A stretch of DNA of 64,000 nucleotides, from contig CAVYJY010000008.1 of assembly GCA_963768965.1 (NCBI GenBank), positions 39,649 to 103,648 on the forward strand, read 5' to 3'. Positions 1 through 64,000 of the stretch are shown here, piece after piece (positions within the stretch are counted from its first letter, which is position 1; the number at the start of each line of letters is the position of its first letter). The stretch is from an uncultured Verrucomicrobiae bacterium (lineage in GTDB: Bacteria > Verrucomicrobiota > Verrucomicrobiia > Chthoniobacterales > UBA10450). The notes beneath the pieces were generated by a model. That model made no database searches. It saw only the letters and a program-made list of their open reading frames with translations, and had not been told where the DNA came from. The translations under genes and the position numbers were made by a program.

Positions 1-155
1 AGATGCGCGGTAACCCGGACGAGATCGCGCCTCTCCCGCCGCCGTCCGACCTGGATTCGCTGCCGCCGCCGGCCGCGGCCGACAGTTCGCCCGCCCCCGA
101 TACCGCGATTTCGGCAGAGCCTTCCCCCACGCCCGAGCCCTCGGCCACCCCTTAG
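1..155 (+). CDS. 3' end of an upstream ORF (Pro/Ser/Ala-rich tail), partial
   Basis: Open frame from position 3 ending at TAG 153-155, 2 nt before the GTG of the next gene. No recognisable domain in the roughly 50 visible codons. Confidence 0.3.
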   Translation, partial: MRGNPDEIAPLPPPSDLDSLPPPAAADSSPAPDTAISAEPSPTPEPSATP

Positions 156-157
156 CG

Positions 158-667
158 GTGAAAAAACTTCTCGGCGCCGCCCTCCTCGTCTTTTCGTTAG
201 GCGGGTGCGCCGGTTATCATCTCGGGCCGATCCAGCCTCACGCCCTGCGCAACGTCCGCAGCATTGCGGTGCCGACTTTCGAAAATAAAACTCTCGCCCC
301 GCGCATCGCCGTGCTCGTGACCGACACCGTGATCAAGCAGTTCCAGCAGGACGGCACCTATCGCATCGCGAGCGACGAGACGGCCGACGCCATTCTCAAG
401 GGCGACATCACCCGGATTTACCGCGCCCCGGCGCGCTCGGTCCGCGGGAATGTCCTGGCGACAAACGAATTCAACCTTTCCCTCCGCGTCCGTTATACCC
501 TGATCGAACGCGGCACCGGCAGGACCCTGGCCTCGCCCGTCGAAGTCGCGGGCACGACCAGCTTTTTCGTCGGGCCCGACATCACTTCCGATGAACGGCA
601 GGCGTTGCCTCTGGCCGCGGAAGAGCTGGCCATCCGGCTCGTCAGCCAGCTCAGCGAGGGCTGGTGA
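158..667 (+). CDS. LptE-like (LPS-assembly) outer-membrane lipoprotein
   Basis: 169-aa ORF with GTG start. Signal peptide with lipobox FSLGGC. Size and pattern (IAVPTFENKT, C-terminal helix) resemble the LptE/RlpB family. Confidence 0.6.
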   Translation: MKKLLGAALLVFSLGGCAGYHLGPIQPHALRNVRSIAVPTFENKTLAPRIAVLVTDTVIKQFQQDGTYRIASDETADAILKGDITRIYRAPARSVRGNVLATNEFNLSLRVRYTLIERGTGRTLASPVEVAGTTSFFVGPDITSDERQALPLAAEELAIRLVSQLSEGW

Positions 668-1548
668 AGGTGAAAGGCCAAGAAAAACTCTGGCGCATTC
701 TGCAGGACAAGCTGGAGATGCTCCTGGCGGGTAATCATCTCCCGGAAGCATTGCGCGTAGCCGAAACCGCGCTCGAGCTGGCGCAAAAAATCTTTCCCGA
801 GAACCATCCCTCGCTCGCCCAAAGCTACGAACGGCTTGGGCAGATCCACGACCAGCGGGACAAAGACTCCGAAGCCAAGGCTTTCCTGGTCCAGGCGCTG
901 GCGATCATGGAGAAAACCGATCCACTGGATCAGCGCGCCATTTTTCGCCTGGCCCGGCGGCTGGCTTATCTCTGCGACGTGGGCGGCGGCGAAGAGGAAG
1001 CGATCAAGTACTACGAGCGAGCCATCCGGGCCGGGAGCGACCTCGACAACGTGCCTCACTCCGACCTCGGGACGATGTTAAATAATGTCGCGCTCATTTA
1101 TCGGCGCCGCGGCCAGGGCAAAGCGGCCGAGCCTTATTACCTCCAAGCCCTCGCGCTCTACGAGAAACAGCTCGGACCCGAACACGCCGACGTCGCCGCG
1201 GTCCTGAATAATCTCGGGGTCTTCTACACGAGCGAGAACCGCCTCGAGGAAGCCGAGCAGATGCACCAGCGCGCCCTCGCGATTCGGCACAAGGCGAATC
1301 CCAAAGGTCACTCCGACATCGCGCAATCGAAGTGCAATCTCGCGGTCGTCTACCATTCGCGCGGCGATCTCACCCGCGCGGGCGAGCTTTACCAGGAATC
1401 GCTCCGGCAGTGGGAAGGGGTGGCGAAGCCTTCGGAGGACTACGAAATCGTCGCCTCCAATTATGCCGATCTTCTGCGGTCGTTAGGCAAACGGCGCCGG
1501 GCCGGCGCGGTCGAATCCCGCGCCCGGAAAATTCGCGCGCGCGCCTAG
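664..1548 (+). CDS. Tetratricopeptide (TPR_12-like) repeat protein
   Basis: 294-aa ORF with repeated A..Y...L.I.EK..G..HP..A..L.NLA.. TPR units. Its start overlaps the upstream stop (GTGA). The exact start is uncertain. Confidence 0.75.
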   Translation: MKVKGQEKLWRILQDKLEMLLAGNHLPEALRVAETALELAQKIFPENHPSLAQSYERLGQIHDQRDKDSEAKAFLVQALAIMEKTDPLDQRAIFRLARRLAYLCDVGGGEEEAIKYYERAIRAGSDLDNVPHSDLGTMLNNVALIYRRRGQGKAAEPYYLQALALYEKQLGPEHADVAAVLNNLGVFYTSENRLEEAEQMHQRALAIRHKANPKGHSDIAQSKCNLAVVYHSRGDLTRAGELYQESLRQWEGVAKPSEDYEIVASNYADLLRSLGKRRRAGAVESRARKIRARA

Positions 1549-1592
1549 CAGCGGTCGAAAATACTCAGCCGAGACCGGAAAGAGGCGAGTCG

Positions 1593-1616
1593 TGTCATAC
1601 TTTGCAAAGTATGACA
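1593..1616. promoter_or_regulatory. Perfect 24-bp palindrome TGTCATACTTTGCAAAGTATGACA (candidate operator)
   Basis: 12+12 nt perfect inverted repeat with no spacer. AT-rich within a GC-rich intergenic region, about 165 nt upstream of tRNA-Leu. Confidence 0.4.
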
Positions 1617-1779
1617 GGAGAAGAGAATTGGTCAGCGACTGTTCTCAAAGGTCTTGCGCCTGAACCACGCATCGCGGTTTTTCAACAGTCTGCCAGGCCG
1701 GCCCGGCCGGAGAATCGCCGCTTGCGGTTGCGGCGGCGGCGGGCAATTTACAGGCCCCGCCTCCGAGGCGGGGCGCAGC

Positions 1780-1860
1780 GCTCACGTGGCGGAATGGCAG
1801 ACGCGTACGGCTCAGGACCGTATGGGGAAACCCGTGGAGGTTCGACTCCTCTCGTGAGCA
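1780..1860 (+). tRNA. tRNA-Leu (anticodon CAG), type II with long variable arm
   Basis: 7-bp acceptor stem GCTCACG/CGTGAGC (1780-1786/1853-1859). Anticodon stem TACGG/CCGTA with loop CTCAGGA (CAG at 1813-1815). Variable arm TGGGGAAACCCGT. T-arm GGAGG-TTCGACT-CCTCT. Discriminator A1860. CCA is not encoded. Confidence 0.9.
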
Positions 1861-1901
1861 GCGCGCCGGATCTTGCGCCTATTTGGTGAAGTTTCGCGTA
1901 A

Positions 1902-2009
1902 GCTTTGGAGTGCGATCGCGTCCTCGCGTCGCTTTCTGGACGCGGAATTCCTTTGGCCGCGCTTAACTTCCCCTAAAAGCGGTGCGAAGACGCACCGCAC
2001 TCCGAAAGC
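1902..2009. repeat. REP-type doublet, family 4 (CTTTGGAGTGCG-hairpin-CGCTTTC ... GAAAAGCGG-hairpin-CCGCACTCCGAAAG)
   Basis: Two inverted hairpin units. A clearly homologous second copy lies at 58767-58888. Stem differences between the copies are compensatory (GCGGTGCG/CGCACCGC versus GCGGCGCG/CGCGCCGC). Confidence 0.6.
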
Positions 2010-2033
2010 TACTTTTCGGGGATCGCCTCCTGC

Positions 2034-4160
2034 CTAACGACCGAAAATTCCGCGCAACCCGCCGCGCGACTCCGGCTTTTGCGCGACCTGCGCCGGCCAG
2101 CATTCCACGATCTCGAGCGCGAGAAAACGGAAGAGGGTGAGCCGGGCAAACTTGATGTCGAGCCGAAGATTTTTCGAGATCTGCGCGATCGAGCGGCTGC
2201 CGTTGAACTGCGAGGCAAACTGCGCTTCTCCCACGGTCAGGCGGAGGTCCTGCACCCGTTCGTAGCCGTCGCGGGTGTAGGCCGGGACCGATCCGCTTTC
2301 GGGGAGCTCCTTCGCGTCGAGCGCCTGATATTGGACAAACCGCAGCGTGCTCAAGGCCCACTGATCAAGGCTGTCCTCGGAGGCCGGGAGCTCGCGGGTA
2401 AACTCGGGCAGTTCCTGCTGCTCAAACATGAATCGAACCCGCTCCGTCCAGAGCTGCGAGAAAAGCCGTTGCCCGTAATGTTGCACAAGCTGCATGGCCG
2501 GCTCGCGCAGGATCAGTCCTTCCCCGGCGAGGGTAATGAAAATCGGACAACCGTCGCTCGCTTGCCGCGCCCGCGCCGCCTCGATCCGCTCGCGGTCCAC
2601 GTTGAGGAGCGTGACGGGCGCCTCTTCGCAATAAAGCTGAGGATTGCGAGTCGTGACCAGGACGATCTCGCCCTCCCGGGCCAATAGTTCGACCGAGTCG
2701 CGCGACCAGAATGCGCGCAGCCGTCCGGTGAGCTTTTCGCGGGCGATGGTCTGCAGCGCCCAGTGCAGGGAAAAGAAACTGGAGTCGCCGCAGAAATAAG
2801 CGCCGCGGGAAGCGCGATCGATTTCGTCCTCCGGCGCCGGCGGCAGGTCAGGTTGGGGCGCGGGGGCGACCGCGGGCGGGGGCATCGGCTCCGATTCTTT
2901 GGCGGGCGAAGTGACGGCCATCGGGGCCGGAGCGCTTGCCGCCGAACGAGGCGGCGGCGTCGGGCGCGGCCTGACTGGTGCGGCCGGCCGGGATTCGTTA
3001 GGCTGGCTCGCTTTCCCCTCCAGGTAATCGCGGACGGAATTGATCAGCGTCTCGGAGGTGAAGGGCTTGTTCAGGGCGCCGATGACGTTTGGAATCTCCG
3101 CGCTGTCCGGCTGGAGATCGCTCCCGAAGCCGGAGACGTAAACCACCGGGATCTTTGCGGTCAGCGGGTCGGCCACGAGCTGCCGGCAGACGGCGTCGCC
3201 CTTCATGTCGGGCAGAATAAAATCGAGCAAAATCAGGTCCGGCTTCTCGCTCCGGCTGATCTCCAGACCTTCCGCCGCGGTCGGGGCGGTCAGGACGCGG
3301 TAATTTTGTTCGTCCAGGATTTCCTTCACGAAACTGAGCAGCATCGCGCTGTCGTCGATCACGAGGATTGTCTTCGAGGCCTCGTTAGGCGAAACCGTCG
3401 CCGCGGCTGCGGGGGCCGCGGTCTGGCGCGACTCGTCGATCTTGCGCACCGCTTCCATCAGCAGCACCTGCCAGTCGAGCTCGATCGTGCGCGGCATTCC
3501 CGGCGGCACCGCGACCTCGGAAATCATGCCGCCTTTCCAGTCGACGATTTCGTTAAAGGCGGCCAGCCCCTCTTTCCCCGGAGCGGTGGCATGACGGACC
3601 TGGCCATTCTCGAAATAAACGCGCGCCTTTTCGCCCCGCGGCCCGGTGAACTCCAGCATCGAAGTCGCGCCGCTGATGCATTTGAGCTGGATGATGTCGG
3701 CAATGTGCAGATCGCTCAGCGTGCCTTGGAATCGTTCGCCTTCGCCGGTATCGGTCGGCGCGAGGAGTGCCTCGACCAGGGTCATGAAGTCCGCCCGTGG
3801 AAACGGTTTTTCCAGGAAATGGATCGCCCCCAGACCGGCGACCTGCTCGCGCTGAGCCGCGAAATGGATCGCGGTCAGGATAATGGCGCGGGCATCGGGG
3901 TGACTCGTGCGCAGATCGTAGATGAACTCCTGCGCCAGGTCGTAGGTCGCGTCCACATCCAGAACGAAAAGCGCCGGCCTTTGATCGACCACCAAATGCT
4001 GCGCCTCGCCTAACGAACCGGCGCGCACCGCCACCGTGCCCGGCGCGGCTTCCTCGACCGCGGAGAGAATTTCCGCCGCCAGACCCTCATCCGGTTCCAG
4101 GACGAGGACTTGCAGTCGAGCAGACGAAGCGGTCGGAGTTTCGGCGGTACCTTGATTCAC
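2034..4160 (-). CDS. Dual response-regulator receiver protein with DUF4388/PATAN-type domains
   Basis: 708-aa ORF. Two REC-like regions (VLVLEPD...FVLDVD; ILVIDDS...DLILLDFILPDMKG). A PATAN/DUF4388-like segment (GTLSDLHIADIIQL...ARVYFENGQV). A Pro-rich linker and a second DUF4388-like C-terminal region. Confidence 0.8.
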   Translation of the reverse strand: MNQGTAETPTASSARLQVLVLEPDEGLAAEILSAVEEAAPGTVAVRAGSLGEAQHLVVDQRPALFVLDVDATYDLAQEFIYDLRTSHPDARAIILTAIHFAAQREQVAGLGAIHFLEKPFPRADFMTLVEALLAPTDTGEGERFQGTLSDLHIADIIQLKCISGATSMLEFTGPRGEKARVYFENGQVRHATAPGKEGLAAFNEIVDWKGGMISEVAVPPGMPRTIELDWQVLLMEAVRKIDESRQTAAPAAAATVSPNEASKTILVIDDSAMLLSFVKEILDEQNYRVLTAPTAAEGLEISRSEKPDLILLDFILPDMKGDAVCRQLVADPLTAKIPVVYVSGFGSDLQPDSAEIPNVIGALNKPFTSETLINSVRDYLEGKASQPNESRPAAPVRPRPTPPPRSAASAPAPMAVTSPAKESEPMPPPAVAPAPQPDLPPAPEDEIDRASRGAYFCGDSSFFSLHWALQTIAREKLTGRLRAFWSRDSVELLAREGEIVLVTTRNPQLYCEEAPVTLLNVDRERIEAARARQASDGCPIFITLAGEGLILREPAMQLVQHYGQRLFSQLWTERVRFMFEQQELPEFTRELPASEDSLDQWALSTLRFVQYQALDAKELPESGSVPAYTRDGYERVQDLRLTVGEAQFASQFNGSRSIAQISKNLRLDIKFARLTLFRFLALEIVECWPAQVAQKPESRGGLRGIFGR

Positions 4161-6195: not shown

Positions 6196-6214
6196 CTCAT
6201 TCCGCCTAACGAAC

Positions 6215-6253: not shown

Positions 6254-7330
6254 ATGGACTTCCAATCCCTCATCGCGCGCAAACGGGAACGCTTCCAGCA
6301 ACTGGAAAGCGAGATTGCCGATCCGCACCTTTTCGACAACCGGAAGAAGGCCAGCGACACCATGCGCGAGCATTCCTCGATCAAGGAGTTGCTCGCGGTT
6401 TGGGAGGAACTCGTCACCGCGCGCCGGCAACTGGAAGACAATCGCGAACTCTCTGCCGCTCCCGACGCCGATCTCGCGCAGATGGCGCAGGAGGAAATCC
6501 CGGCACTGGAAAAACGCGTCGCCGATCTTGAATTTGAGGTCCAGGTCGCGCTCCTGCCGCCCGATGAAGCAGACGATCGCGATGCCATTGTGGAAATTCG
6601 CGCCGGCACCGGCGGCAGCGAAGCCGCTATTTTTGCCGCCGATCTCTACCGGATGTACAACCGCTACGCGGAAACCGCCGGGCTCAAGATCGAAGATCTC
6701 GAACTCAGTCCGTCGGAGCTCGGCGGGATGAAGGAAGCCATCTTTAAAATCTCGGGCGAATCGGTTTTCCGGAAGCTGCGCTACGAGAGCGGCGTGCACC
6801 GCGTCCAGCGCGTGCCCGCAACCGAAGCCCAGGGACGCATTCACACTTCCACCGCGACCGTCGCGGTCCTGCCGGAAGCCGAGGAAGTCGATTTCGAAAT
6901 CAAACCGGAAGACCTCCGGATCGAAGTTTGCCGCGCCGGCGGACCCGGCGGGCAGGGCGTGAACACAACCGATTCCGCGGTCCAGGTCATGTACATTCCG
7001 ACCGGCCGGATCGTGCGTTGCCAGGACGGTCGCAGCCAGCAGAAGAACAAGGAAAAAGCGCTTAAGATTTTGCGCGCGCGCCTGCTCGAGGACAAAAAGC
7101 GCGAAGAAGAGGCGAAATACTCCGCTCATCGCAAGAGCCAGATCGGTTCCGGCGGCCGCGAAGAAAAAATCCGCACCTACAATTTCCCGCAGAACCGGAT
7201 CACCGATCACCGCATCGGGCTCACGCTCTACAATCTCGACCGCGTCATGGAAGGCGACCTCGACGAACTGCTCTCCACCCTGCAGCACGCCGATCTCGAA
7301 CAGCGGCTGAAGGAATCGGCCCTGGCCTAA
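6254..7330 (+). CDS. prfA: Peptide chain release factor 1
   Basis: MDFQSLIARKRERFQQLE start. RF1-specific PAT tripeptide (RVPATEAQGR). GGQ motif (GPGGQGVNTTDSAV). The stop TAA lies inside a GCCTAACGA word. Confidence 0.95.
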   Translation: MDFQSLIARKRERFQQLESEIADPHLFDNRKKASDTMREHSSIKELLAVWEELVTARRQLEDNRELSAAPDADLAQMAQEEIPALEKRVADLEFEVQVALLPPDEADDRDAIVEIRAGTGGSEAAIFAADLYRMYNRYAETAGLKIEDLELSPSELGGMKEAIFKISGESVFRKLRYESGVHRVQRVPATEAQGRIHTSTATVAVLPEAEEVDFEIKPEDLRIEVCRAGGPGGQGVNTTDSAVQVMYIPTGRIVRCQDGRSQQKNKEKALKILRARLLEDKKREEEAKYSAHRKSQIGSGGREEKIRTYNFPQNRITDHRIGLTLYNLDRVMEGDLDELLSTLQHADLEQRLKESALA

Positions 7331-7344
7331 CGACAGTGAACCCA

Positions 7345-7451: not shown

Positions 7452-8288
7452 ATGACCGTCCTCGAAGTCCTGCAATCGACCACCGCCTATTTCGAAAAGC
7501 GCGCGATCGAGAGCCCGCGGCTCAACGCCGAGCATCTCGTCGCGCATTCGTTAGGGAAAAAGAGGATCGAGCTTTATCTCGAGTTCGAGCGCCCACTGGC
7601 CGAGACCGAACTGGCGCCGCTTCGCGAGCTCGTTAGGCGCCGCGGCCAGGGTGAACCGTTGCAGCATCTGCTCGGGACGGTCGAATTCAGCGACCACACC
7701 TTCGTCTCCGACAAACGCGCGCTGATTCCCCGCCCCGAGACCGAGCAACTGGTCGAATACCTCTGCGACCTCACCTGGCTGGCGAATCCGCGCATGCTCG
7801 ACGTCGGCACCGGCAGCGGCGTCATCGCGCTCTCCCTCGCGGCGCATTTTCCGAGCGCGGAACTGCACGCGGTCGACCTTTCGCCCGACGCGCTCACCCT
7901 CGCCCGCGAAAATGCGGACCGCCTCGGCATCCCGGACCGAATCAAATTCATGCAAGGTCACCTGCTCGACCCGATCGAAGGCAAATTCGACCTCATCGTG
8001 GCGAACCTGCCCTACGTCGCGGCGGGCGACGCTGCGCAACTTGCGCCCGAAGTGCGGCACGATCCGGCGATCGCGCTCTACGGCGGCCCGATCGGCGACG
8101 AACTTATTCGCGAACTCATCGCCACTGCGCCGCCGCACTTGAACTCGGGCGCAACGCTCGCGCTTGAGATTGGCATCGATCAGGAAACCCGCCTTTCCGA
8201 CTTCCTCGCCGCGCAAAATTACCACGACATTCGCTCAAAAAAGGACTATGCAGGGACCCCACGGTTCCTCTTCGCACGGCATGGATAA
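7452..8288 (+). CDS. prmC: Release-factor glutamine N5-methyltransferase (HemK/PrmC)
   Basis: Follows prfA. SAM-binding LDVGTGSGVIAL and substrate motif IVANLPYV (an NPPY variant). The ATG at 7452 was chosen just after the REPIN. Confidence 0.9.
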   Translation: MTVLEVLQSTTAYFEKRAIESPRLNAEHLVAHSLGKKRIELYLEFERPLAETELAPLRELVRRRGQGEPLQHLLGTVEFSDHTFVSDKRALIPRPETEQLVEYLCDLTWLANPRMLDVGTGSGVIALSLAAHFPSAELHAVDLSPDALTLARENADRLGIPDRIKFMQGHLLDPIEGKFDLIVANLPYVAAGDAAQLAPEVRHDPAIALYGGPIGDELIRELIATAPPHLNSGATLALEIGIDQETRLSDFLAAQNYHDIRSKKDYAGTPRFLFARHG

Positions 8289-13914: not shown

Positions 13915-14346
<432 letters not shown>

Positions 14347-14384: not shown

Positions 14385-14828
14385 ATGAGCATCTCGGATC
14401 TGCCGGCGATAAACGCCTCTTTCAACGCCATCAGCACGGTTTTCATCTCGTTAGGCTGGTGGTTCATCCGGCGCGGCTTCTGGCGCCAGCACATCGCCTG
14501 CATGGTCACGGCGCTGGTTTCCTCCGTCTTTTTTCTCGTCGGCTATCTCGTTTATCATGCCTACGTCGGCGAGAAATCCTCCGGCTACACCGGGCTGATC
14601 GCGTGGTTCTATTTCCCCCTGCTCATCTCCCATGTCCTCCTCGCCTTTGCCACGCTCCCGCTCGTCATCCTGACCCTGATCCCGGTCTTCCGGCGGCGCT
14701 GGGATAAACACCGGCGGATTGCGAAATGGACGATGCCGATCTGGCTTTACGTCTCGGTCACCGGGGTGCTGGTTTATTTCATCCTCTACCAATGGTTCCC
14801 ACCCGCCAGTCTTGCGCTCGGGCGCTAG
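14385..14828 (+). CDS. DUF420-like four-TM membrane protein
   Basis: MSISDLPAINASFNAISTVF start and four predicted TM helices with conserved His residues. The ATG at 14385 was chosen because the upstream part of the track ORF is microsatellite/REP sequence. Confidence 0.65.
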   Translation: MSISDLPAINASFNAISTVFISLGWWFIRRGFWRQHIACMVTALVSSVFFLVGYLVYHAYVGEKSSGYTGLIAWFYFPLLISHVLLAFATLPLVILTLIPVFRRRWDKHRRIAKWTMPIWLYVSVTGVLVYFILYQWFPPASLALGR

Positions 14829-15328: not shown

Positions 15329-15391
15329 TCGCCTAACGACCCCCGATTCCGCGGCCGTCCGGGTCGCGAGAAGCTGCGCTTCGCTCGAACG

Positions 15392-17259: not shown

Positions 17260-17280
17260 CGCCCGACGCCGGGCTCTGAT

Positions 17281-17362: not shown

Positions 17363-17372
17363 AGCGAGCCGC

Positions 17373-51708: not shown

Positions 51709-51739
51709 GCGGGCCCAAGAACCGATTCAGCCTAACGAC

Positions 51740-56767: not shown

Positions 56768-57005
56768 AATTTTCGTTAGGGAATTTGGTCGCCGACATCC
56801 AACTGACGACAACGGCAGCGGAACGAGCGCGCGGAGATTCTCAGAATTCACAAATGAAGGCAAGCATTCTTTTTTCCGTTGTTCGCGTTATTGTCGGGAC
56901 GCCGTCTTTCAGAGGGAGGGAATCGCTTCCGTCGCTTCCGCGGGATGGCGCACCGCCGCCACGATTGCGCTCGCCCCGGTGGTTCGCCGTGATTAAATTT
57001 CTCGC

Positions 57006-58906: not shown

Positions 58907-61111
58907 TCAGGCGCTGAGGGAATGACCGCCGGCGCTATAGACCATGATGACGCGCCGGAGATCTCCGATCTCCGCCCGCATCGCTTCCAGGGCCGCGAGA
59001 TCTTCCGCCTCGTTAGGCGGAGTGAAGCCTTTTAGGACCAGCGCGGCTTCCTGCGAGCAACTGCGCATCGCCGCGATCCCATCCTCGCCCACGACGATCT
59101 CGAGCTCGGCCGGGACCCGCGCCGCTTCCATCAGCCTGGTCAATTGCTCCCGCGCTTTCGCTTCCTGTTCCGGATCGGCCACGGCGAAGACGAGTCGGAT
59201 GGTATGGTTCCGCCATTCCGGGTTTTGCGCCAGCATGTGGGCGAGGAGCAGCATGAGCGCGCCGTTTTTGCCGCCCTGCCACCAGACGTCGATCGTGCCG
59301 CGCGGCGCGGCCGCGAGCCGTTTCTCTTCGTCGGGGCAATAGACGATGAGCGCGCTGCGCTCGAGTTCGGCGATCCGGCGCAGGACCTGGCAGAAACGCT
59401 CCAGCCGTTTCGGGTTATCGGCCCAGCCCACCAGGACGGTGTTGGGCCGGATGCCGCCGATCCCGCAACATTCCACCAGCGACTCCATGCCATGCAGCAG
59501 GTCGGGCTCGATCACGACCGCGGGGAAAGCCTGCAGATCTTCCCCGGCAATAAATTTGCGCAGCTTGTCTTCCTCCTCGTCGCGGCGCTCGTTTAATTTC
59601 TCGCCCGTCTCTTCCATCACCTGCGCGAGAATCATGATCCCGCGGCCGGCGGTCAGCCAGGAGCCGTACTGCGCGAGGTGATTGCGCCGCCAGGCGCCGC
59701 CGCTGAGGGCGAGGATGATCGGGCGCCAGTTCTTGGGGTGGTAACGCGTATCCTCCAGTTGCAGCAAAGCGCGGCGCGCACGCTCAAACGCGGCCCCGCT
59801 GCGCACGTCGCCCCAGGCGGCGCGGATTTCCTTGCGCGAGATCCACCATTTCAGAAACACCATCGCGCCGATCCCGACCGCGGCCCAGACCGGGTCGAGC
59901 AGGAGCATCGCCGCCACGCAGCCGATCGCGCCGAGGAGCGCGCTCGACCAATGGCTGAGCTTGAAGGACGGGCGATAGCTCGGGTTACGCGTGGCCGACT
60001 CGTAGAAGCAGGCGAGGTTGATCGTGCCGTAGGTGACCATGAAAAACATCGTGATGATCGGCGCGATCGCGTTCAGGTCGCCGAAGACGATCGCGACCTG
60101 CGCGATGATGAGGGTGAGGATGGTGGCGCGGCGGGGCTCATTGCTCGCGCCGCTGCCGCGAGCGAGCGGGCGCAGCCGCGGGAAGATATCGTCGCGCGCC
60201 AACGCCTGCAGGATGCGCGGCGCGCCCATCATGCTCCCGAGCGCGGAGGAGAGCGTGGCCGCAAAAATCCCGGCGTTGATGAGCATGGGAGACCAGGCCA
60301 CCTCGAGAATCACGAGCGGCCTTTCGAGAAGCGCCTCGCGCGGCGTCGCGGCCGCGAAGAGGAACGCCATCGCAATATAAACGACCGCGGTAAATCCGAT
60401 CGCGGCCAGGGTCCCGCGCGGAATCGACTTGGCGGGATTCTGCAGATCGCCCGACATGTTTACCCCCGCCATGATCCCGGTCACGGCCGGGAAAAAGAGC
60501 GCGAACATAATGAAAACGCTCTCGCCGGGCGGGTAGGCCGAGTGCAAATTTGCGCGCAGCGTCGCCTCCGACGCCGCCGGGATGGCGCCGGCAAAAAACG
60601 AAACGAGCGCGAGCGCGAGAATGGCAAGAATGCCGTACTGCACCTTGATCGCCCAGCTCGCGCCGATGTAAACGCAGATGAAAATGCCGACGTTCACGAT
60701 CGTGCCGATGGCGCGGGCGGAGAGCCCGAGGTTGGGAAACAAATTCTGAAACGCCTCCGTGAAACCGATCACGTAAAGCGCGACCGAGATCGCCTGCGCG
60801 AGAAAGAAGACGACGCCGATGGCGCCGCCAAATTCCACCCCGAGACTGCGGCTGATCAGGTAATAAGCACCGCCACCTTTCACTCGGGTGTTCGTCGCCA
60901 GACCCGAGACCGAGAGCGCAGTCAGAGTCGTGATCAACTTCGCCACGAGCACGATGACGATCGCCTGGATCAAGCCCGACTCGCCGACGACGAGGCCGAA
61001 GCGGAGGAACATGATGACGCCGAGAATCGTCAGGGTGCTCGGGGTGAAAACGCCGCCAAACGTGCCGAACTTGGTCGGCGCGGCGGCGGGCGAAGAAGAA
61101 CTGTTGGCCAC
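58907..61111 (-). CDS. APC-superfamily permease with a large cytosolic C-terminal domain (cation-chloride cotransporter/SLC12-like)
   Basis: 734 aa with GTG start. About 12 TM helices with an amino-acid-permease-like pattern (FGTFGGVFTPS..), followed by a soluble domain of about 280 aa. Confidence 0.7.
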   Translation of the reverse strand: MANSSSSPAAAPTKFGTFGGVFTPSTLTILGVIMFLRFGLVVGESGLIQAIVIVLVAKLITTLTALSVSGLATNTRVKGGGAYYLISRSLGVEFGGAIGVVFFLAQAISVALYVIGFTEAFQNLFPNLGLSARAIGTIVNVGIFICVYIGASWAIKVQYGILAILALALVSFFAGAIPAASEATLRANLHSAYPPGESVFIMFALFFPAVTGIMAGVNMSGDLQNPAKSIPRGTLAAIGFTAVVYIAMAFLFAAATPREALLERPLVILEVAWSPMLINAGIFAATLSSALGSMMGAPRILQALARDDIFPRLRPLARGSGASNEPRRATILTLIIAQVAIVFGDLNAIAPIITMFFMVTYGTINLACFYESATRNPSYRPSFKLSHWSSALLGAIGCVAAMLLLDPVWAAVGIGAMVFLKWWISRKEIRAAWGDVRSGAAFERARRALLQLEDTRYHPKNWRPIILALSGGAWRRNHLAQYGSWLTAGRGIMILAQVMEETGEKLNERRDEEEDKLRKFIAGEDLQAFPAVVIEPDLLHGMESLVECCGIGGIRPNTVLVGWADNPKRLERFCQVLRRIAELERSALIVYCPDEEKRLAAAPRGTIDVWWQGGKNGALMLLLAHMLAQNPEWRNHTIRLVFAVADPEQEAKAREQLTRLMEAARVPAELEIVVGEDGIAAMRSCSQEAALVLKGFTPPNEAEDLAALEAMRAEIGDLRRVIMVYSAGGHSLSA

Positions 61112-61129: not shown

Positions 61130-61898
61130 CTACGAGTCTGCCCGAAGTCGAAGCGGAAAGATCGTCACCTCCACTCCGCGCGACATGATGACGTGATCGG
61201 GCGCGCGCCCGGTGGGAGCGAAGCCGTCGAGCGCGAGGAGGCGATCGTCCCAGGCCGTCACGCTCGCTTCGCAAAGCGGATACGGCTGATGGAAAACCGC
61301 GCCGCGGAAAGAGGCGGCCGTTTCCGTGCGCGTAAAGCCGGTAGCGTTCGATGAGAAAGAATTCGAGCGAACCGGGCGCGGCCGCCGGCAATTCCGAGCC
61401 GGGCGCGTATTCGAAGATCGTCGGCTCCAGGCTGCCGACGCGGAGCGAACGATAATGGATCGCGCCCGATTCCGTACGGCTCGATTCCATCGCCGCGTGC
61501 TCGTAGGGGAGATGAAAAAAGCGCCGCGCAATTTTCACCGCCAGCGGCTGATTGGCATCGAGCGAATAAAACCACACTCCCGGCACGCCGGCGTCGTCGT
61601 GCACGTAAGTGCGCACGTTTAGCTCCATGAAATTCGACAGCCGCGGGAAGCCGGGGAGAAAGCGCGGGCGCACCTTGCGCATGAAAAACGGCACGATCCC
61701 GAGCCAGGCTTTGCCGCCGAAAGTATCGACATGCAAACCCTCCGGCAGCGTCGCCCGGATCGCCGCGGCCGGATATTCCCAATGCAGGAATAGCAGATCG
61801 CGCCATTGCTGATACATCGCCGGCCGCCCCACCGGGCGCGCCCGGACCGCGAGCCGCTGTTGCTCGTTAGGCGAGAACGCAGTCGCGGCGGTGCTCAT
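61130..61898 (-). pseudogene. DUF2071 (YgjF/YqjF-like) family protein, interrupted by a 1-nt insertion
   Basis: N-terminal part ..WRDLLFLHWEYP...FMELNVRTYV.. continues in the 61130-61531 ORF (..RGAVFHQPYPLCEASV..VEVTIFPL). The frames join if one C is removed from sense CTCTTTCCGCGGC (plus-strand GG 61296-61297). The remainder of the 586-aa track ORF is out-of-frame read-through into the permease gene. Confidence 0.65.
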
Positions 61899-62577: not shown

Positions 62578-62720
62578 AACTAAAATTTCCTCCGGTGAAA
62601 AACTTCCTGCGCTAAAAAACACGTCCGCGCATTGCTCCCGGACGCAAGCGCCGCGGGCTCCGGCGACGAATCTTTTTTAAAGACGAGAGAACATCCCTCG
62701 TCGCGTTAGGAGACAAATTT

Positions 62721-63119
62721 ATGAGCTACATCAAACAAATGTTCGAATCGCACCCGGTGAATCCCTCCTCGGACCACGCCACCAACATCGAGTGCATCAC
62801 CGCCTGCTATTCCTGCGCGGAAGCCTGCAATGCCTGCGCCGACGCCTGCCTCGGCGAAAAAAACGTCGCCGACATGGTGTCATGCATTCGCGACTGCACC
62901 GATTGCGCCGACGTCTGCCTGGTCACGGCGCGGATCGTCTCGCGCTTCACCCGCACCGATTTCAAGCTCGCCGGCGCCCAGCTCCGCGCCTGCATCCAGG
63001 CCTGCCAAAGCTGCGGGGCGGAGTGCGAGAAACACGGCGCGAAGATGGAACATTGCCGCGTCTGCGCCGAAGCCTGCCGCCGCTGCGAGGAAGCCTGCGA
63101 GGCTTTGCTGGCGGAATAA
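62721..63119 (+). CDS. Cys-rich four-helix-bundle protein (DUF326; copper-binding type)
   Basis: Repeated CxxxCxxC motifs (CITACYSCAEACNACADAC, CIRDCTDCADVC, CIQACQSCGAEC, CRVCAEACRRCEEAC). AGGAG sits 8 nt upstream of the ATG. Confidence 0.8.
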   Translation: MSYIKQMFESHPVNPSSDHATNIECITACYSCAEACNACADACLGEKNVADMVSCIRDCTDCADVCLVTARIVSRFTRTDFKLAGAQLRACIQACQSCGAECEKHGAKMEHCRVCAEACRRCEEACEALLAE

Positions 63120-63139
63120 GGCACCGGGGCAAAAAAAAC

Positions 63140-63161
63140 GCGGGGCCATCATTGGCCCCGC
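63140..63161 (-). terminator. Intrinsic terminator oriented for minus-strand transcription
   Basis: Stem GCGGGGCCA/TGGCCCCGC with a 4-nt loop. On the minus strand it is followed by T8 (plus-strand A8 at 63131-63138). There is no U-run for the plus-strand direction. Confidence 0.7.
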
Positions 63162-63296
63162 TCAAAAGCTGACGGAAGGAAACGTCAAGTTTAGGTGTTT
63201 ATAAGTGACCTCCGAGCTTTGCGCAGTATTTAGCAGCCGCTGTGCCAGCCTTGCGGCGAATTGATTCACATCGGCCACCCGCAAGCGCATAGCCGT

Positions 63297-63318
63297 CTTC
63301 GGTCCTAGCCGAATAGAC
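63297..63318 (+). repeat. 22-nt direct repeat, left copy (CTTCGGTCCTAGCCGAATAGAC)
   Basis: 20/22 identical to 63823-63844. The two copies bracket the LuxR-family gene. Confidence 0.75.
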
Positions 63319-63350
63319 CGCGGGCGCGCGCACGGCTGAGACTTCGCGGC

Positions 63351-63794
63351 GTGACGCGCCGGAAAAAGTCAGCCTCCAAGACCGGCCCGGGCAAACCACT
63401 CTCCGCCCACGAAGCCGGCAAGCTCTCGGCCCGGGTGCGCGAAGAACCTGCCACCACGGAAGCTTACGGCGCCCGCACGTGGAGCCGTGAGGAGGAACTC
63501 CTCGACAATCTCACTCCTGGCGAAATGGAAGTGCTCGCGCTCATGGCCGAGCGGCTGACTAACGAGACCATCGCGGACCGGCGGAAGGTGGGATTGTCCA
63601 CGATCGAGAAACACATCGAGAACATTTACCCGAAGCTTTTGGTCAACACGCGCGCCGATGCCGTCGCTCTCTACCTCCATGCACAGCAGGAACGTTCGCG
63701 CCGTGAGCTGACCGAGCTCCGCCGGGAAAATGCCCGGCTCATCCGCCAGAACGCGGCCCTTCAAGCCGAAATCCGGCGGCGCCGCGGTGGTTGA
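63351..63794 (+). CDS. LuxR/FixJ-family HTH transcriptional regulator with a C-terminal coiled-coil
   Basis: LTPGEMEVLALMAERLTNETIADRRKVGLSTIEKHIENIYPKLLV is the GerE-type HTH. GTG start; the exact start is uncertain. Confidence 0.7.
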   Translation: MTRRKKSASKTGPGKPLSAHEAGKLSARVREEPATTEAYGARTWSREEELLDNLTPGEMEVLALMAERLTNETIADRRKVGLSTIEKHIENIYPKLLVNTRADAVALYLHAQQERSRRELTELRRENARLIRQNAALQAEIRRRRGG

Positions 63795-63822
63795 TCGCAG
63801 CGCCGCCCGCGCCGCGCCAATT

Positions 63823-63844
63823 CTTCGGTCGCAGCCGAATAGAC
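63823..63844 (+). repeat. 22-nt direct repeat, right copy (CTTCGGTCGCAGCCGAATAGAC)
   Basis: See 63297-63318. Confidence 0.75.
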
Positions 63845-64000
63845 GCTTCCTTCGGGATTCGCGCACACTCCCGCTCTCGTCTCCACAGCTCATGATCTTG
63901 CGAGGAAAATCCCTGGTTCCATTCGCGCGAACGCCGCGGAGAGCCGCGGGACGATTTTGCGGCGCCGCGCGCCGTTCCCAAAACCGCACATAACCGCGCG

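What the first reader, a model, noticed from the sequence alone, without database searches (positions are those of the whole stretch)
1..64000. Hyper-abundant non-palindromic 9-mer TCGTTAGGC / GCCTAACGA at about 1 per kb (uptake-signal-like genome word)
By eye I count at least 59 copies of the 7-nt core CGTTAGG/CCTAACG: 33 as CGTTAGG on the plus strand and 26 as CCTAACG. At least 37 copies match the exact 9-mer TCGTTAGGC/GCCTAACGA. Examples are at 194, 1480, 2032, 2995, 3382, 4008, 6204, 7325, 7630, 13764, 14449, 15331, 17371, 17760, 21335, 23447, 25735, 27688, 28865, 30653, 31474, 31744, 32955, 33185, 34086, 38055, 41445, 42460, 42856, 43034, 44147, 45115, 47044, 48067, 51730, 59010 and 61864. 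A rough estimate assuming about 62% GC and independent bases predicts about 8 copies of the 7-mer and fewer than 1 of the 9-mer on both strands. Flanking sequence is not conserved, so this is a free-standing word and not part of a larger repeat. It occurs in both orientations, in intergenic DNA, and inside genes in all three frames. In frame it reads as S-L-G (TCG TTA GGC), V-R (GTT AGG), P-N-E/D (CCT AAC GA) or L-T (CTA ACG), using TTA, AGG and CTA codons that are otherwise rare in this GC3-rich coding sequence. That argues for selection on the DNA and not on the protein. Its embedded TAA/TAG is the actual stop codon of at least 7 genes: prfA, accA, lpdA, efp, the PATAN regulator, the 17373 esterase and the 43037 oxidoreductase. 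Density, short length, lack of strand polarity and proteome imprint resemble the DUS of Neisseriaceae and the USS of Pasteurellaceae. I know of no such signal described for this kind of organism. Alternatives are a nucleoid-protein or partition/condensation binding word, or a recombination signal.
Basis: partly seen in the sequence, partly recalled or inferred. Interest (0 to 1): 0.8.

Follow-up and report, generated by a model that had tools for sequence, protein, structure and literature searches.

The report
DUS-like genome word in soil Verrucomicrobia
A 9-base DNA word, TCGTTAGGC, is scattered about once per kilobase through this soil Verrucomicrobia genome, roughly 140 times more often than chance, and shows the sequence hallmarks of the 'DNA uptake sequences' by which Neisseria and Haemophilus recognise their own DNA; I found no report of such a signal outside those two families.

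Summary
The window has 37 copies of TCGTTAGGC/GCCTAACGA (0.26 expected) and 59 copies of the core CGTTAGG (3.8 expected). It is the commonest 9-mer.

- **Shape:** flanks carry no information. Both orientations are equal, with no bias to DNA strand, GC-skew strand or transcription. There are no hairpins, and spacing is slightly more even than random.
- **Coding imprint:** 71% of copies lie inside genes in the four stop-free frames, forcing rare codons (35% of all TTA codons). Eight of 54 stop codons sit inside the word. Resampling synonymous codons removes the coding copies.
- **Source:** a Chthoniobacterales (Verrucomicrobiota) soil MAG.
- **Relatives:** 27 related species carry the same word at 0.76/kb (O/E 143). 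Copies are often at orthologous sites, 3-6 times better conserved than their flanks, and there are also lineage-specific gains.
- **Other versions:** a sister subclade uses an extended dialect, ACTCGTTAGGC. Candidatus Udaeobacter-like lineages instead carry an unrelated word, AAGATCGACA (O/E 144), plus decaying relics of the first.

These properties match neisserial DUS and Pasteurellaceae USS. Polarity rules out Chi/KOPS. Uptake itself is untested, and a HIP1-like or nucleoid-binding role remains possible. I found no prior description.

The parts
194..202 (+). exact TCGTTAGGC; in lptE-like gene, sense, S-L-G frame
1480..1488 (+). exact TCGTTAGGC; in TPR protein gene, sense, S-L-G frame
2032..2040 (-). 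exact TCGTTAGGC; its TAG is the stop codon of the response-regulator/DUF4388 gene
2995..3003 (+). exact TCGTTAGGC; in response-regulator gene, antisense, P-N-D/E frame
3382..3390 (+). exact TCGTTAGGC; in response-regulator gene, antisense, P-N-D/E frame
4008..4016 (-). exact TCGTTAGGC; in response-regulator gene, sense, S-L-G frame
6204..6212 (-). exact TCGTTAGGC; intergenic, upstream of prfA
7325..7333 (-). exact TCGTTAGGC; its TAA is the stop codon of prfA
7548..7556 (+). variant TCGTTAGGG; in prmC, sense, S-L-G frame
7630..7638 (+). exact TCGTTAGGC; in prmC, sense, V-R frame
9135..9143 (-). variant CCGTTAGGC; in EPSP-synthase-family gene, antisense, P-N frame
10884..10892 (+). variant TCGTTAGGT; in TIM-barrel gene, antisense, L-T frame
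12653..12661 (+). variant TCGTTAGGG; in YhdP-like gene, antisense, P-N frame
13764..13772 (+). exact TCGTTAGGC; in YhdP-like gene, antisense, L-T frame
14448..14456 (+). exact TCGTTAGGC; in DUF420 gene, sense, S-L-G frame
15331..15339 (-). exact TCGTTAGGC; intergenic, 3 nt after the DUF2007 gene stop
17254..17262 (-). variant GCGTTAGGC; its TAA is the stop codon of accA
17371..17379 (-). exact TCGTTAGGC; its TAG is the stop codon of the esterase gene
17760..17768 (-). exact TCGTTAGGC; in esterase gene, sense, S-L-G frame
20495..20503 (-). variant TCGTTAGGG; in inter-domain linker of the E2 acyltransferase gene, antisense, P-N frame
20543..20551 (-). variant GCGTTAGGG; in E2 linker, antisense, P-N frame
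21335..21343 (+). exact TCGTTAGGC; in E2 acyltransferase gene, sense, V-R frame
22955..22963 (+). variant CCGTTAGGC; its TAG is the stop codon of lpdA
23447..23455 (-). exact TCGTTAGGC; in Methyltransf_28 gene, sense, S-L-G frame; conserved in 8+ relatives
25736..25744 (-). exact TCGTTAGGC; in PBP1 gene, antisense, P-N-D/E frame; conserved in relatives
26258..26266 (-). variant TCGTTAGGG; in PBP1 gene (F-P-N-E); conserved in 17 relatives, F-P-N-G elsewhere
27286..27294 (+). variant TCGTTAGGG; in unknown 336-aa gene, sense, S-L-G frame
27688..27696 (+). exact TCGTTAGGC; in unknown 336-aa gene, sense, S-L-G frame
28063..28071 (+). variant TCGTTAGGG (TCGTTAGGC in 12 relatives); in unknown 336-aa gene, S-L-G frame
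28865..28873 (+). exact TCGTTAGGC; in GT4 glycosyltransferase gene, antisense, W-P-N-D
29452..29460 (-). variant ACGTTAGGC; intergenic at the 5' end of the GT4 gene; the variant is conserved in 15+ relatives
30653..30661 (+). exact TCGTTAGGC; in SIS-CBS gene, V-R frame; lineage-specific gain, GTS CGG in about 60 relatives changed to GTT AGG here (two synonymous changes)
31474..31482 (-). exact TCGTTAGGC; its TAA is the stop codon of efp; conserved in about 20 relatives
31744..31752 (+). exact TCGTTAGGC; in unknown 270-aa gene, S-L-G; core kept in 47 of 74 aligned relatives, synonymous decay series in the others
32955..32963 (+). exact TCGTTAGGC; in unknown 633-aa gene, Q-P-N-E; core kept in 37 of 56 aligned relatives, synonymous CCG/CCA AAC/AAT in the others
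33185..33193 (-). exact TCGTTAGGC; in unknown 633-aa gene, S-L-G where relatives without the word have S-L-Q
34086..34094 (+). exact TCGTTAGGC; its TAA is the stop codon of the alpha-amylase-family gene (L-P-N-E in the overlapping ORF against L-P-K/Q-E elsewhere)
36928..36936 (+). variant ACGTTAGGC; intergenic
38055..38063 (+). exact TCGTTAGGC; in PMT_2/GT2 gene, antisense, L-T frame
40543..40551 (-). variant TCGTTAGGG; in LolA-like gene, antisense, L-T frame
41445..41453 (-). exact TCGTTAGGC; in cyclophilin gene, antisense, L-T frame
41701..41709 (-). variant TCGTTAGGA; in cyclophilin gene, antisense, P-N frame
42460..42468 (-). exact TCGTTAGGC; in cyclophilin gene, antisense, P-N-E frame
42856..42864 (-). 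exact TCGTTAGGC; in cyclophilin gene, antisense, P-N-D/E frame
43034..43042 (+). exact TCGTTAGGC; its TAA is the stop codon of the FAD oxidoreductase gene
44147..44155 (-). exact TCGTTAGGC; in FAD oxidoreductase gene, sense, S-L-G frame
45115..45123 (+). exact TCGTTAGGC; in aminotransferase gene, sense, V-R frame
45229..45237 (+). variant TCGTTAGGG; in aminotransferase gene, sense, V-R frame
47044..47052 (-). exact TCGTTAGGC; at the mnmE/pyrD junction, antisense, L-T frame of pyrD
47232..47240 (+). variant CCGTTAGGC; in pyrD, sense frame (P-L-G)
48067..48075 (+). exact TCGTTAGGC; intergenic, 2 nt after the pyrD stop
51730..51738 (-). exact TCGTTAGGC; intergenic, between two convergent gene ends
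53109..53117 (+). variant TCGTTAGGG; in Calx-beta giant gene, antisense, P-N frame
54854..54862 (-). variant TCGTTAGGG; in Calx-beta giant gene, sense, S-L-G frame
56499..56507 (+). variant TCGTTAGGG; in Calx-beta giant gene, antisense, P-N frame
56773..56781 (+). variant TCGTTAGGG; intergenic, upstream of the Calx-beta gene
59010..59018 (+). exact TCGTTAGGC; in amino-acid permease/SLC12 gene, antisense, P-N frame
61864..61872 (+). exact TCGTTAGGC; intergenic
62703..62711 (+). variant GCGTTAGGA; intergenic

Best explanation
TCGTTAGGC is a lineage-specific 'self' tag of Chthoniobacterales chromosomes. It most likely works like the DNA uptake sequences of Neisseriaceae (DUS) and Pasteurellaceae (USS).

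Proposed mechanism, all of it inferred:
1. A sequence-specific, probably monomeric DNA receptor on the uptake machinery binds the non-palindromic word in double-stranded DNA, in either orientation. A type IV pilus or competence-pseudopilus minor pilin is one candidate.
2. Fragments released by lysed relatives that carry the word are taken up preferentially.
3. ComEC imports them as single strands and they recombine into the chromosome.
4. Because word-bearing alleles are over-transmitted, any mutation that creates or improves a word is driven upward.
5. Words accumulate until mutational decay and selection on the encoded proteins balance the drive.

Shown here: a free-standing word at about one per kilobase, slightly more evenly spaced than random and blind to orientation. 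It sits where it is tolerated, meaning gene ends, stop codons, linkers, poorly conserved residues and synonymous positions, even at the cost of rare codons.

Inferred from the phylogenetic pattern: a change in receptor specificity creates dialects (ACTCGTTAGGC) or a replacement word (AAGATCGACA in Udaeobacter-like lineages), after which the old word decays.

A donor-side bias, such as sequence-specific packaging or export of DNA, would produce the same drive and cannot be told apart here.
For: - **Abundance:** 37 copies of the 9-mer against 0.26 expected and 59 of the 7-mer against 3.8. Masked Markov models of order 1-4 predict 0.2-0.3. Synonymous-codon resampling abolishes the coding copies.
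- **Free-standing:** flanks carry no information. Only 2 of 51 words have an inverted partner nearby, and local folding energy is unchanged.
- **No polarity:** 33 plus to 26 minus in a window with near-uniform negative GC skew; 20 sense to 21 antisense; 47 on the G-rich strand to 48 on the C-rich strand in independent soil contigs.
- **Spacing:** more even than random, CV 0.76, P = 0.017.
- **One-mismatch halo:** 45 observed against 11.5 expected, with positions 3, 4 and 7 nearly invariant.
- **Proteome imprint:**
  - 35% of TTA, 22% of AGG, 21% of CTA and 17% of CCT codons lie in the word.
  - Relatives without the word have synonymous alternatives or different residues at the same sites: SLQ to SLG, LPKE to LPNE, FPNG to FPNE.
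  - Codons under words are less conserved, 64% against 73% amino-acid identity.
- **Gene ends:** 12 of 59 copies lie within 10 nt of a stop (1.0 expected), and 8 of 54 stop codons sit inside the word.
- **Phylogeny:**
  - The same word has O/E 143 in 27 related species.
  - 55-80% of the window's copies are kept in place at 77-84% nucleotide identity, against 13-25% expected from the flanks.
  - Lineage-specific gains occur at sites 4-7 mismatches from the word in all other relatives.
  - There is an 11-mer dialect and a different dispersed word in Udaeobacter-like lineages with O/E 144.
  - Relics and a synonymous decay series of the first word persist there.
- **Literature:**
  - These are the properties described for DUS and USS (PMC2817400, PMC3630211).
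  - All five Angelo-meadow Verrucomicrobia populations (54-56% GC), from the meadow samples whose names also appear on the AAGATCGACA-bearing AV MAGs, encode ComEC, two of them next to RuvB. Recombination is common in those soil populations (PMC7305173).
- **Pilins:** a prepilin-type gene occurs on a word-rich soil contig.
Against: - There is no functional evidence of any kind. No uptake, binding or transformation data exist for any Chthoniobacterales.
- The window contains no competence, pilus or DNA-receptor gene. I could not inspect a complete genome of this clade.
- ComEC and prepilins are widespread in bacteria that have no uptake specificity, so their presence is only permissive.
- Unlike neisserial DUS, the words do not form inverted-pair terminators. 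Unlike USS, they have no AT-rich flanks.
- Positional conservation beyond the flanks is equally expected if the word has an in-situ function. That is how the same pattern was read for HIP1 (PMC5861425).
- Depletion in accessory or foreign DNA is only weakly indicated: the 48-64 kb quarter is word-poor at P about 0.02, and word-free gaps in relatives hold ordinary accessory genes.
Confidence: 0.55

Rival explanations
1. A HIP1-like word. As with the cyanobacterial octamer GCGATCGC, the word would be created or maintained inside the cell. One route is a sequence-specific DNA methyltransferase coupled to biased mismatch repair. Another is selection for a methylation-dependent role in recombination or chromosome structure, not discrimination at the cell surface.
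For: - HIP1 shows the same gross statistics: 15-300-fold over-representation, conservation within and between ORFs, and replacement by alternative words in some lineages that tracks the cognate methyltransferase (PMC5861425; PMC4390886 abstract).
- The Udaeobacter-type word AAGATCGACA contains GATC and shares GATCG with HIP1.
- Word replacement between sister clades would follow from swapping a methyltransferase.
- Positional conservation fits an in-situ function.
Against: - The window's word is non-palindromic and contains no palindromic sub-site. Every described HIP is a palindrome recognised by a Type II-like methyltransferase.
- Biased very-short-patch-type repair acts on one position and is not known to generate a 140-fold excess of a 9-mer.
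- Gains occur at sites 4-7 mismatches away from the word, which needs a force acting on all positions.
- The window has no DNA methyltransferase. PrmC and Methyltransf_28 are protein methyltransferases.
- Recent HIP1 work itself points to transformation and recombination (bioRxiv 10.1101/2024.09.10.611283), so this rival partly converges with the main explanation.
Confidence: 0.18
2. A binding-site array for a chromosome-organising protein (nucleoid-associated, condensin-loading or segregation factor). Selection would keep roughly one site per kilobase for compaction or domain structure.
For: - Spacing is more even than random.
- Sites are conserved in place beyond their flanks.
- The word works in either orientation.
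- A non-palindromic 9-mer suits a monomeric DNA-binding domain.
Against: - From my own knowledge, not tested here: known site-specific chromosome organisers (parS, the Noc, SlmA and MatP sites) use tens of palindromic sites confined to chromosome domains, not thousands of exact 9-mers inside genes.
- A housekeeping structural protein would not be expected to change its word completely between sister clades, or to lose it in many lineages.
- Frequent lineage-specific gains and losses fit a drive better than selection on fixed positions.
Confidence: 0.12
3. A polar recombination or translocation signal of the Chi (RecBCD/AddAB) or KOPS/AIMS (FtsK) type.
For: Such signals are short, non-palindromic, over-represented and differ between lineages (general knowledge). 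The HIP1 transformation study also invokes a Chi-like effect.
Against: - A polar signal should lie mostly on one replication strand. Here the split is 33 to 26 in a window whose cumulative GC skew falls almost monotonically.
- In independent soil contigs the split is 47 on the G-rich strand to 48 on the C-rich strand.
- The density, about 1 per kb for a 9-mer, and the 140-fold excess far exceed Chi or KOPS values as I recall them.
Confidence: 0.03
4. A by-product: part of a dispersed mobile repeat, a favoured peptide or codon pattern, or an assembly artefact.
For: Some other 'abundant words' in relatives did turn out to be tandem heptamer arrays, REP-like hairpin repeats or codon-driven strings.
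Against: - The flanks are random.
- Sense and antisense copies are equal, and four different peptides are encoded.
- Rare codons are used.
- Codon resampling removes the copies.
- The word occurs in MAGs and contigs from many independent studies and assembly pipelines, as their record and contig names indicate.
Confidence: 0.01

Closest known systems
DNA uptake sequence (DUS) of Neisseriaceae (12-mer AT-GCCGTCTGAA and its dialects; the receptor is the minor pilin ComP)
   Same: - A non-palindromic word at about 1 per kb, present in thousands of copies per genome.
- Both orientations are used.
- It lies inside genes as well as between them, and is enriched at gene 3' ends.
- Dialects track the phylogeny (here TCGTTAGGC against ACTCGTTAGGC).
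- Copies are conserved in place among related species, with turnover.
- There is a halo of one-mismatch variants around a strict inner core (PMC3630211).
   Different: - The sequence and the phylum are unrelated.
- There are no inverted-pair terminator hairpins.
- A larger share of copies is coding: 71% here against 34.5% in N. meningitidis (header rows of PMC2817400).
- A sister clade carries a wholly different word, not a dialect sharing a core.
- Receptor and uptake bias are unknown here.
Uptake signal sequence (USS) of Pasteurellaceae (9-mer cores AAGTGCGGT / ACAAGCGGT)
   Same: - A 9-mer core at a similar density. From my own knowledge, the 1,471 copies in H. influenzae fall in a genome of about 1.8 Mb.
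- Most copies are in ORFs: 65% in H. influenzae (header rows of PMC2817400) against 71% here.
- The proteome is imprinted, with copies at poorly conserved residues (PMC2817400).
- Two unrelated-looking word types exist within one taxon.
- From my own knowledge, not checked here: USS are also reported to be more evenly spaced than random, as this word is.
   Different: - There are no AT-rich helically phased flanks.
- USS frames correlate with preferred codons, whereas every open frame of this word needs at least one rare codon.
- The word carries a stop codon in two of its six frames and supplies 15% of the window's stop codons.
- Competence has not been demonstrated.
HIP1 (GCGATCGC) and alternative HIPs of cyanobacteria
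   Same: - Hyper-abundance of 15-300-fold.
- Conservation within and between ORFs.
- Lineage-specific replacement by other words.
- Function still debated, with recent evidence for a role in natural transformation.
   Different: - HIPs are palindromes tied to orphan Type II-like methyltransferases.
- The word here is non-palindromic, and no methyltransferase link is known.
Chi and KOPS/AIMS polar octamers
   Same: Short, non-palindromic, over-represented and lineage-specific words read by DNA-processing machines.
   Different: Those signals are strongly skewed toward one replication strand and far less enriched. This word shows no skew.
REP/BIME and MITE-like dispersed repeats
   Same: Many copies, often near gene ends.
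   Different: Those are longer, structured (hairpin) and intergenic. This word is 9 nt with random flanks and no structure, and lies mostly inside genes. A genuine REP-like hairpin repeat also exists in the window and is distinct from the word.

Membership tests
DUS/USS-type DNA uptake sequences | A short (9-12 nt) non-palindromic word, hyper-abundant at about 1 per kb and over 100 times expectation | tested here: met
   37 against 0.26 expected, 0.58/kb; core 0.92/kb. O/E 143 across 27 related species.
DUS/USS-type DNA uptake sequences | A free-standing word, not part of a longer repeat or mobile element | tested here: met
   The logo has information only at T-CGTTAGG-C/G. No hairpin partners.
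DUS/USS-type DNA uptake sequences | Both orientations used, with no replication-strand or transcription polarity | tested here: met
   33 to 26 on the two strands, 20 to 21 sense to antisense. 47 to 48 relative to GC skew in independent contigs.
DUS/USS-type DNA uptake sequences | Imprint on coding sequence: encoded peptides and codons are distorted, and copies sit at poorly conserved positions | tested here: met
   Share of rare codons. Synonymous and non-synonymous differences from relatives lacking the word. 64% against 73% amino-acid identity. Codon resampling.
DUS/USS-type DNA uptake sequences | Lineage-specific, with dialects congruent with phylogeny and copies shared at orthologous sites | tested here: met
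   Clade distribution. 11-mer dialect. Orthologous retention 3-6 times above flank expectation.
DUS/USS-type DNA uptake sequences | Under-representation in recently acquired or accessory DNA | tested here: inconclusive
   The 48-64 kb quarter holds 4 9-mers against 10-12 per quarter elsewhere, P about 0.02. Word-free 5-6 kb gaps in relatives hold accessory but not obviously mobile genes. No word-rich virus was found in IMG/VR.
DUS/USS-type DNA uptake sequences | The organism has natural-competence machinery (ComEC, DprA, type IV pilus or pseudopilus) | tested here: inconclusive
   None in the window. ComEC is reported in all five Angelo-meadow Verrucomicrobia populations (PMC7305173 Table S3). 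Prepilin-type genes occur on word-bearing contigs. No whole genome of this clade was accessible.
DUS/USS-type DNA uptake sequences | Word-bearing DNA is preferentially bound, taken up or transformed, and a cognate receptor exists (ComP in Neisseria) | not testable with these tools
   Needs uptake, competition or EMSA experiments, or phylogenetic profiling across whole genomes.
HIP1-type highly iterated palindromes | A palindromic word matching an orphan methyltransferase site | tested here: not met
   TCGTTAGGC is non-palindromic and has no palindromic sub-site (direct reading). No DNA methyltransferase in the window. Methylation state is untestable here.
Chi / KOPS polar signals | Strong skew toward one replication strand | tested here: not met
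REP / MITE dispersed repeats | A conserved unit over 20 nt with an inverted repeat, located between genes | tested here: not met

The most novel reading that the evidence does not exclude
Chthoniobacterales include Candidatus Udaeobacter, described as one of the most dominant soil bacterial groups. They would possess a previously unrecognised, sequence-specific system for recognising their own DNA, used for uptake or exchange. This would be a third, independent origin of uptake signal sequences, in a different phylum. Receptor specificity would have switched at least twice: a 9-mer, an 11-mer dialect, and an unrelated 10-mer, with the old word left as fossils. It would imply that kin-biased natural transformation shapes the genomes of dominant uncultured soil bacteria. 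It would also give a sequence tag for tracking it in metagenomes and extracellular DNA.
Probability: 0.5. Interest if true: 0.9.

Novelty: new member of a known kind. Interest (0 to 1): 0.8.

Why it matters
Genome-wide uptake signal sequences are known from only two proteobacterial families of animal-associated bacteria, and they are the clearest genomic footprint of habitual natural transformation with self-preference.

Finding the same footprint in Chthoniobacterales, with dialects and a replaced word in Udaeobacter-like lineages, would matter in four ways:

1. It would show that this solution evolved independently in another phylum.
2. It would be strong indirect evidence that abundant, uncultured soil bacteria exchange DNA by transformation, a long-standing open question in soil microbiology.
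3. It would make the question testable. Words can be counted in extracellular-DNA pools. Candidate receptors can be found by matching gene families to word identity across hundreds of MAGs. Synthetic fragments with and without the word can be used in microcosms.
4. It would give a practical lineage tag for binning and for spotting foreign islands.

If the word instead turns out to be HIP1-like or a nucleoid signal, it would still be the first non-palindromic example of that class.

Tried and rejected
1. **'Other words' in relatives.** I first read AATGACGAA (L036/L037), CAACGCTCAA (L061), TCATCCCGAG (L056/L075) and CCTGCTCG (L029) as further lineage-specific words. Looking at the copies showed tandem heptamer arrays, REP-like inverted repeats and a codon-driven string. 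Only AAGATCGACA is a second dispersed word.
2. **Gene calls from the look-up of encoding contigs.** It returned only two ~1-kb contigs, so I used my own codon-model gene map plus Pfam.
3. **Unmasked Markov orders 4-5.** They 'explain' the word only because the word dominates its own sub-words. I used a masked background and codon resampling instead.
4. **Viral contigs.** Two scans for pairs of words found only chance or tandem-repeat hits, each with just the two copies used to find it. No word-rich phage turned up.
5. **Hairpin or terminator role.** Rejected.
6. **Pilin search.** A regex search in 1.8 Mb of fetched DNA found three prepilin-type genes, one on a word-rich contig with only an N_methyl Pfam hit. 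That is too little to name a receptor.
7. **Word-free gaps in relatives as islands.** The genes are accessory but not clearly mobile, so this is inconclusive.
8. **Literature.** Searches for the words themselves, for uptake sequences in Verrucomicrobia, and for k-mer discovery of new uptake sequences found nothing relevant.
9. **A shared 'TCG' between the two words.** TCGTTAGGC and TTGTCGATCTT both contain it. I noted this but judged it too weak to interpret.

Full report
**Observation.** An exact search finds 37 copies of TCGTTAGGC/GCCTAACGA, 20 on the plus strand and 17 on the minus. One hundred dinucleotide-preserving shuffles give a mean of 0.26 and a maximum of 2. The core CGTTAGG occurs 59 times, 33 plus and 26 minus, against 3.8 expected.
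- It is the most frequent 9-mer in the window, 37 copies against 22 for the runner-up.
- With the word masked out of the background, Markov models of order 1-4 predict 0.18-0.31 copies. Unmasked orders 4-5 are contaminated by the word itself.
- I resampled every codon synonymously from the window's own usage, keeping proteins, intergenic DNA and stop codons. That leaves 6.6 +/- 1.1 copies, which I attribute to the untouched positions. The excess is therefore not a consequence of the proteome or of codon usage.

**Anatomy.**
- A logo of the 59 sites carries information only at T(51/59)-CGTTAGG-[C 43 / G 13]. There is a faint purine preference over the next three or four bases, and the flanks are otherwise random.
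- One-mismatch variants form a halo of 45 observed against 11.5 expected. The commonest are TCGTTAGGG (12), TCGTCAGGC (6) and TTGTTAGGC (5). Positions 3, 4 and 7 almost never vary.
- Only 2 of 51 words have an inverted partner within 80 nt, and local folding energy equals that of random positions. The word is not a hairpin, a terminator or part of a REP element.
- Spacing is somewhat more even than random: CV 0.76, P = 0.017, largest gap 3.7 kb.

**Context in the window.** I built a codon-model gene map and checked it with Pfam. The genes are ordinary housekeeping ones: lptE, prfA, prmC, accA, E2/lpdA, a PBP1, efp, argS, mnmE, pyrD and others. There is no competence, pilus or DNA-methyltransferase gene.
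- Of the 59 sites, 42 lie inside genes, 8 contain a gene's stop codon and 9 are intergenic.
- Coding copies are 20 sense and 21 antisense. They use only the four stop-free frames: S-L-G 15, P-N-D/E 15, V-R 5 and L-T 6.
- They force rare codons. The word holds 14 of 40 TTA, 5 of 23 AGG, 6 of 29 CTA and 14 of 82 CCT codons in the window.
- Twelve sites lie within 10 nt of a stop codon (1.0 expected), and 8 of the 54 called stop codons are the word's own TAA or TAG.
- The 48-64 kb quarter is word-poor: 4 9-mers against 10-12 in each other quarter, P about 0.02. It includes a lower-GC giant Calx-beta gene that carries only TCGTTAGGG variants.

**No polarity.**
- GC skew is negative in 13 of the 16 4-kb bins and the cumulative skew falls almost monotonically, so I take the window to lie on one replichore. 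The word still splits 33 to 26.
- A metagenome scan for a convergent pair of words returned 120 soil and rhizosphere contigs. After removing the pair used to find each word-rich contig, TCGTTAGG lies on the G-rich strand 47 times and on the C-rich strand 48 times.

**Who carries it.** An EF-P-anchored scan of one genome per species places the window in Chthoniobacterales (Verrucomicrobiota). Nearly all hits are MAGs, many named for soil samples. The closest locus (L001) has an identical EF-P but only 89% nucleotide identity, so it is a different species.
- GCCTAACGA is the top 9-mer in about 30 of the 80 loci. Pooled over 27 of them there are 345 copies in 452 kb, O/E 143.
- These records come from many independent studies and assembly pipelines, judging by their record and contig names, so an artefact is excluded.
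- Clustering the EF-P region shows the word is phylogenetically structured.
- Several 'other words' I first noted in relatives proved to be tandem heptamer arrays, REP-like repeats or codon strings.
- A census restricted to dispersed copies leaves exactly one other true word, AAGATCGACA(W). It occurs in the Udaeobacter-like clusters at 0.63/kb for the 10-mer (O/E 144), with both orientations equal. L080 has 35 copies in 20 kb.
- One subclade (L017, L031, L041, L050) uses an extended dialect, ACTCGTTAGGC. Across the four loci, A at -2 is present in 57-80% of copies and C at -1 in 57-87%; the small L050 sample is the lowest. The window's clade shows no preference at -2.
- Lineages without a dominant word still hold TCGTTAGGC at O/E about 22, and the AAGATCGACA clade at about 6.
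- At one S-L-G site the relatives show a synonymous decay series: TCGTTAGGC, TCGTTGGGC, TCATTGGGC, TCACTGGGC, TCGCTGGGC. I read TCGTTAGGC as the older word, now decaying where it has been replaced or lost.

**Dynamics.**
- In word-bearing relatives at 77-84% nucleotide identity, 55-80% of the window's 8-mers are retained in place. Flank identity predicts 13-25%. In the AAGATCGACA lineages retention is about zero.
- Where relatives lack the word, they carry synonymous alternatives: TCG CTC GGC, GTG CGG, CCG AAC.
- In other cases they carry different residues: S-L-Q for S-L-G, L-P-K/Q-E for L-P-N-E, F-P-N-G for F-P-N-E.
- Codons under words are less conserved than the rest of the same genes, 64% against 73% amino-acid identity.
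- The copy at 30653 is a window-specific gain by two synonymous changes to rarer codons, GTS CGG to GTT AGG.
- A site-by-species matrix shows many single-lineage gains at positions where every other relative is 4-7 mismatches from the word.
- A directional force therefore acts on the DNA at all nine positions. It both creates and maintains copies.

**Interpretation.** Taken together, these properties match those documented for neisserial DUS and Pasteurellaceae USS:
- density of about 1 per kb and orientation-blindness;
- random flanks and a mismatch halo around a strict core;
- enrichment at gene ends and a proteome imprint at poorly conserved positions;
- orthologous retention with turnover;
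- dialects that follow phylogeny.

The comparison papers are PMC2817400 and PMC3630211. The accepted explanation for DUS and USS is molecular drive. A sequence-specific uptake receptor over-transmits word-bearing fragments, which then recombine.

I adopt that as the best explanation here, with confidence 0.55. Only the genomic footprint is shown; uptake, receptor and recombination are inferred. Supporting but permissive evidence:
- All five Verrucomicrobia populations (54-56% GC) of the Angelo meadow encode ComEC, two of them next to RuvB. Sample names from that meadow also appear on the AAGATCGACA-bearing AV MAGs. The authors found pervasive recombination in those soil populations (PMC7305173).
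- Prepilin-type genes occur on word-bearing contigs.

**Rivals.**
- *HIP1-like word (0.18).* Cyanobacterial HIP1 has similar statistics, and lineage-specific replacements track methyltransferases. The Udaeobacter word contains GATC. Against this, the window's word is non-palindromic, no repair bias is known to build a 9-mer, and recent work ties HIP1 itself to natural transformation.
- *Nucleoid or segregation binding array (0.12).* This fits the even spacing and positional conservation. It does not fit the complete change of word between sister clades, its loss in many lineages, or the rapid gains.
- *Polar Chi/KOPS signals (0.03).* Excluded by the orientation tests.
- *Artefact, peptide or mobile-repeat explanations (0.01).* Excluded by the flank, codon and multi-study evidence.

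**Novelty.** Full-text searches found no description. I searched for the words themselves, for uptake sequences together with Verrucomicrobia or Udaeobacter, and for k-mer discovery of new uptake sequences. A Udaeobacter genome paper mentions neither competence nor any such repeat. I classify this as a new member of a known kind: a third, independent uptake-signal-like word system, in a new phylum. It differs from DUS and USS in three ways. There are no hairpin pairs or AT-rich flanks. The word contains a stop codon and supplies 15% of the window's stop codons. And a sister clade has replaced the word outright.

**Limits.** No complete genome of the clade could be examined, so genome-wide replichore, island and competence-gene tests remain to be done. 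The relatives' loci are syntenic and phylogenetically related, so pooled counts are not independent. P-values based on aligned codons are inflated by that non-independence. The assembly contains frameshifts, which affect gene calls but not word counts.

Noticed in passing
window 7343-7371, 9936-9964, 10515-10543, 17279-17307, 20042-20070 (+ strand): Five copies of a 29-nt repeat, TTGTAGACGYCTCCCTCTGGGAGGCGCGG, forming an 8-bp stem with a 3-nt loop. Four of the five lie just downstream of the stop of a plus-strand gene. There is no U-tract and no Rfam match, and the repeat is absent from all 80 relatives' loci. It looks like a species-specific REP-like or terminator-like element, distinct from the 9-mer word.
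   Followed up: partly
window 20217-21465 and 35132-36376: The E2 acyltransferase gene and argS are each split between two reading frames, with Pfam domains continuing across the frame change. These are either indel errors typical of long-read assemblies or real pseudogenes.
   Followed up: partly
window 14207-14270: A tandem hexamer (GAGCAC)n encodes a (Glu-His)n tract at the N-terminus of the DUF420 membrane protein. It accounts for the apparent abundance of CGAGCACGA.
   Followed up: no
window 48076-64000, especially 51740-56767: A word-poor stretch. It holds a 1675-aa protein with 12 Calx-beta repeats at lower GC (0.57) that carries only TCGTTAGGG variants, plus two unknown proteins (48215-51708) with no copy at all. 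This may be younger or accessory DNA.
   Followed up: partly
L052, L057, L059, L060, L062-L064, L067, L068, L070-L073, L076, L077, L080: Udaeobacter-like relatives carry a different dispersed word, (A)AGATCGACA(W), at 0.6-2 per kb with both orientations equal. L080 carries this word (35 copies) together with 6 exact copies of TCGTTAGGC.
   Followed up: partly
L017, L031, L041, L050: A subclade uses an extended dialect, ACTCGTTAGGC, with A at -2 and C at -1 in most copies.
   Followed up: yes
L036 10581-10690 and 14443-14561; L037; L061 1633-1667: Tandem heptamer arrays, (ATGACGA)n and (ACGCTCA)n, some arranged as inverted arrays. Their function is unknown, and they mimic 'abundant words' in k-mer counts.
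   Followed up: no
L056 9832/9900 and 11645/11716: Inverted pairs of a longer repeat containing GTCATCCCGAGCG. This is a REP-like element in another Chthoniobacterales lineage.
   Followed up: no
L240 13873-14346; L071 near 19208; L205 near 12447: Prepilin-type genes with a GFTLVEI N-terminal methylation motif. The L240 gene (157 aa, Pfam N_methyl only) sits on a soil contig with 18 words in 14.5 kb. It is a possible starting point for a receptor search.
   Followed up: partly
window 1780-1860: tRNA-Leu(CAG), the only RNA gene detected by ARAGORN and Rfam in the window.
   Followed up: yes
L001 compared with window 20.9-41.5 kb: The best genome hit has a 100% identical EF-P but only 89% nucleotide identity over 16 kb, and differs at 4 of 14 word sites. 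The window's own genome is therefore not the species representative in the collection.
   Followed up: yes
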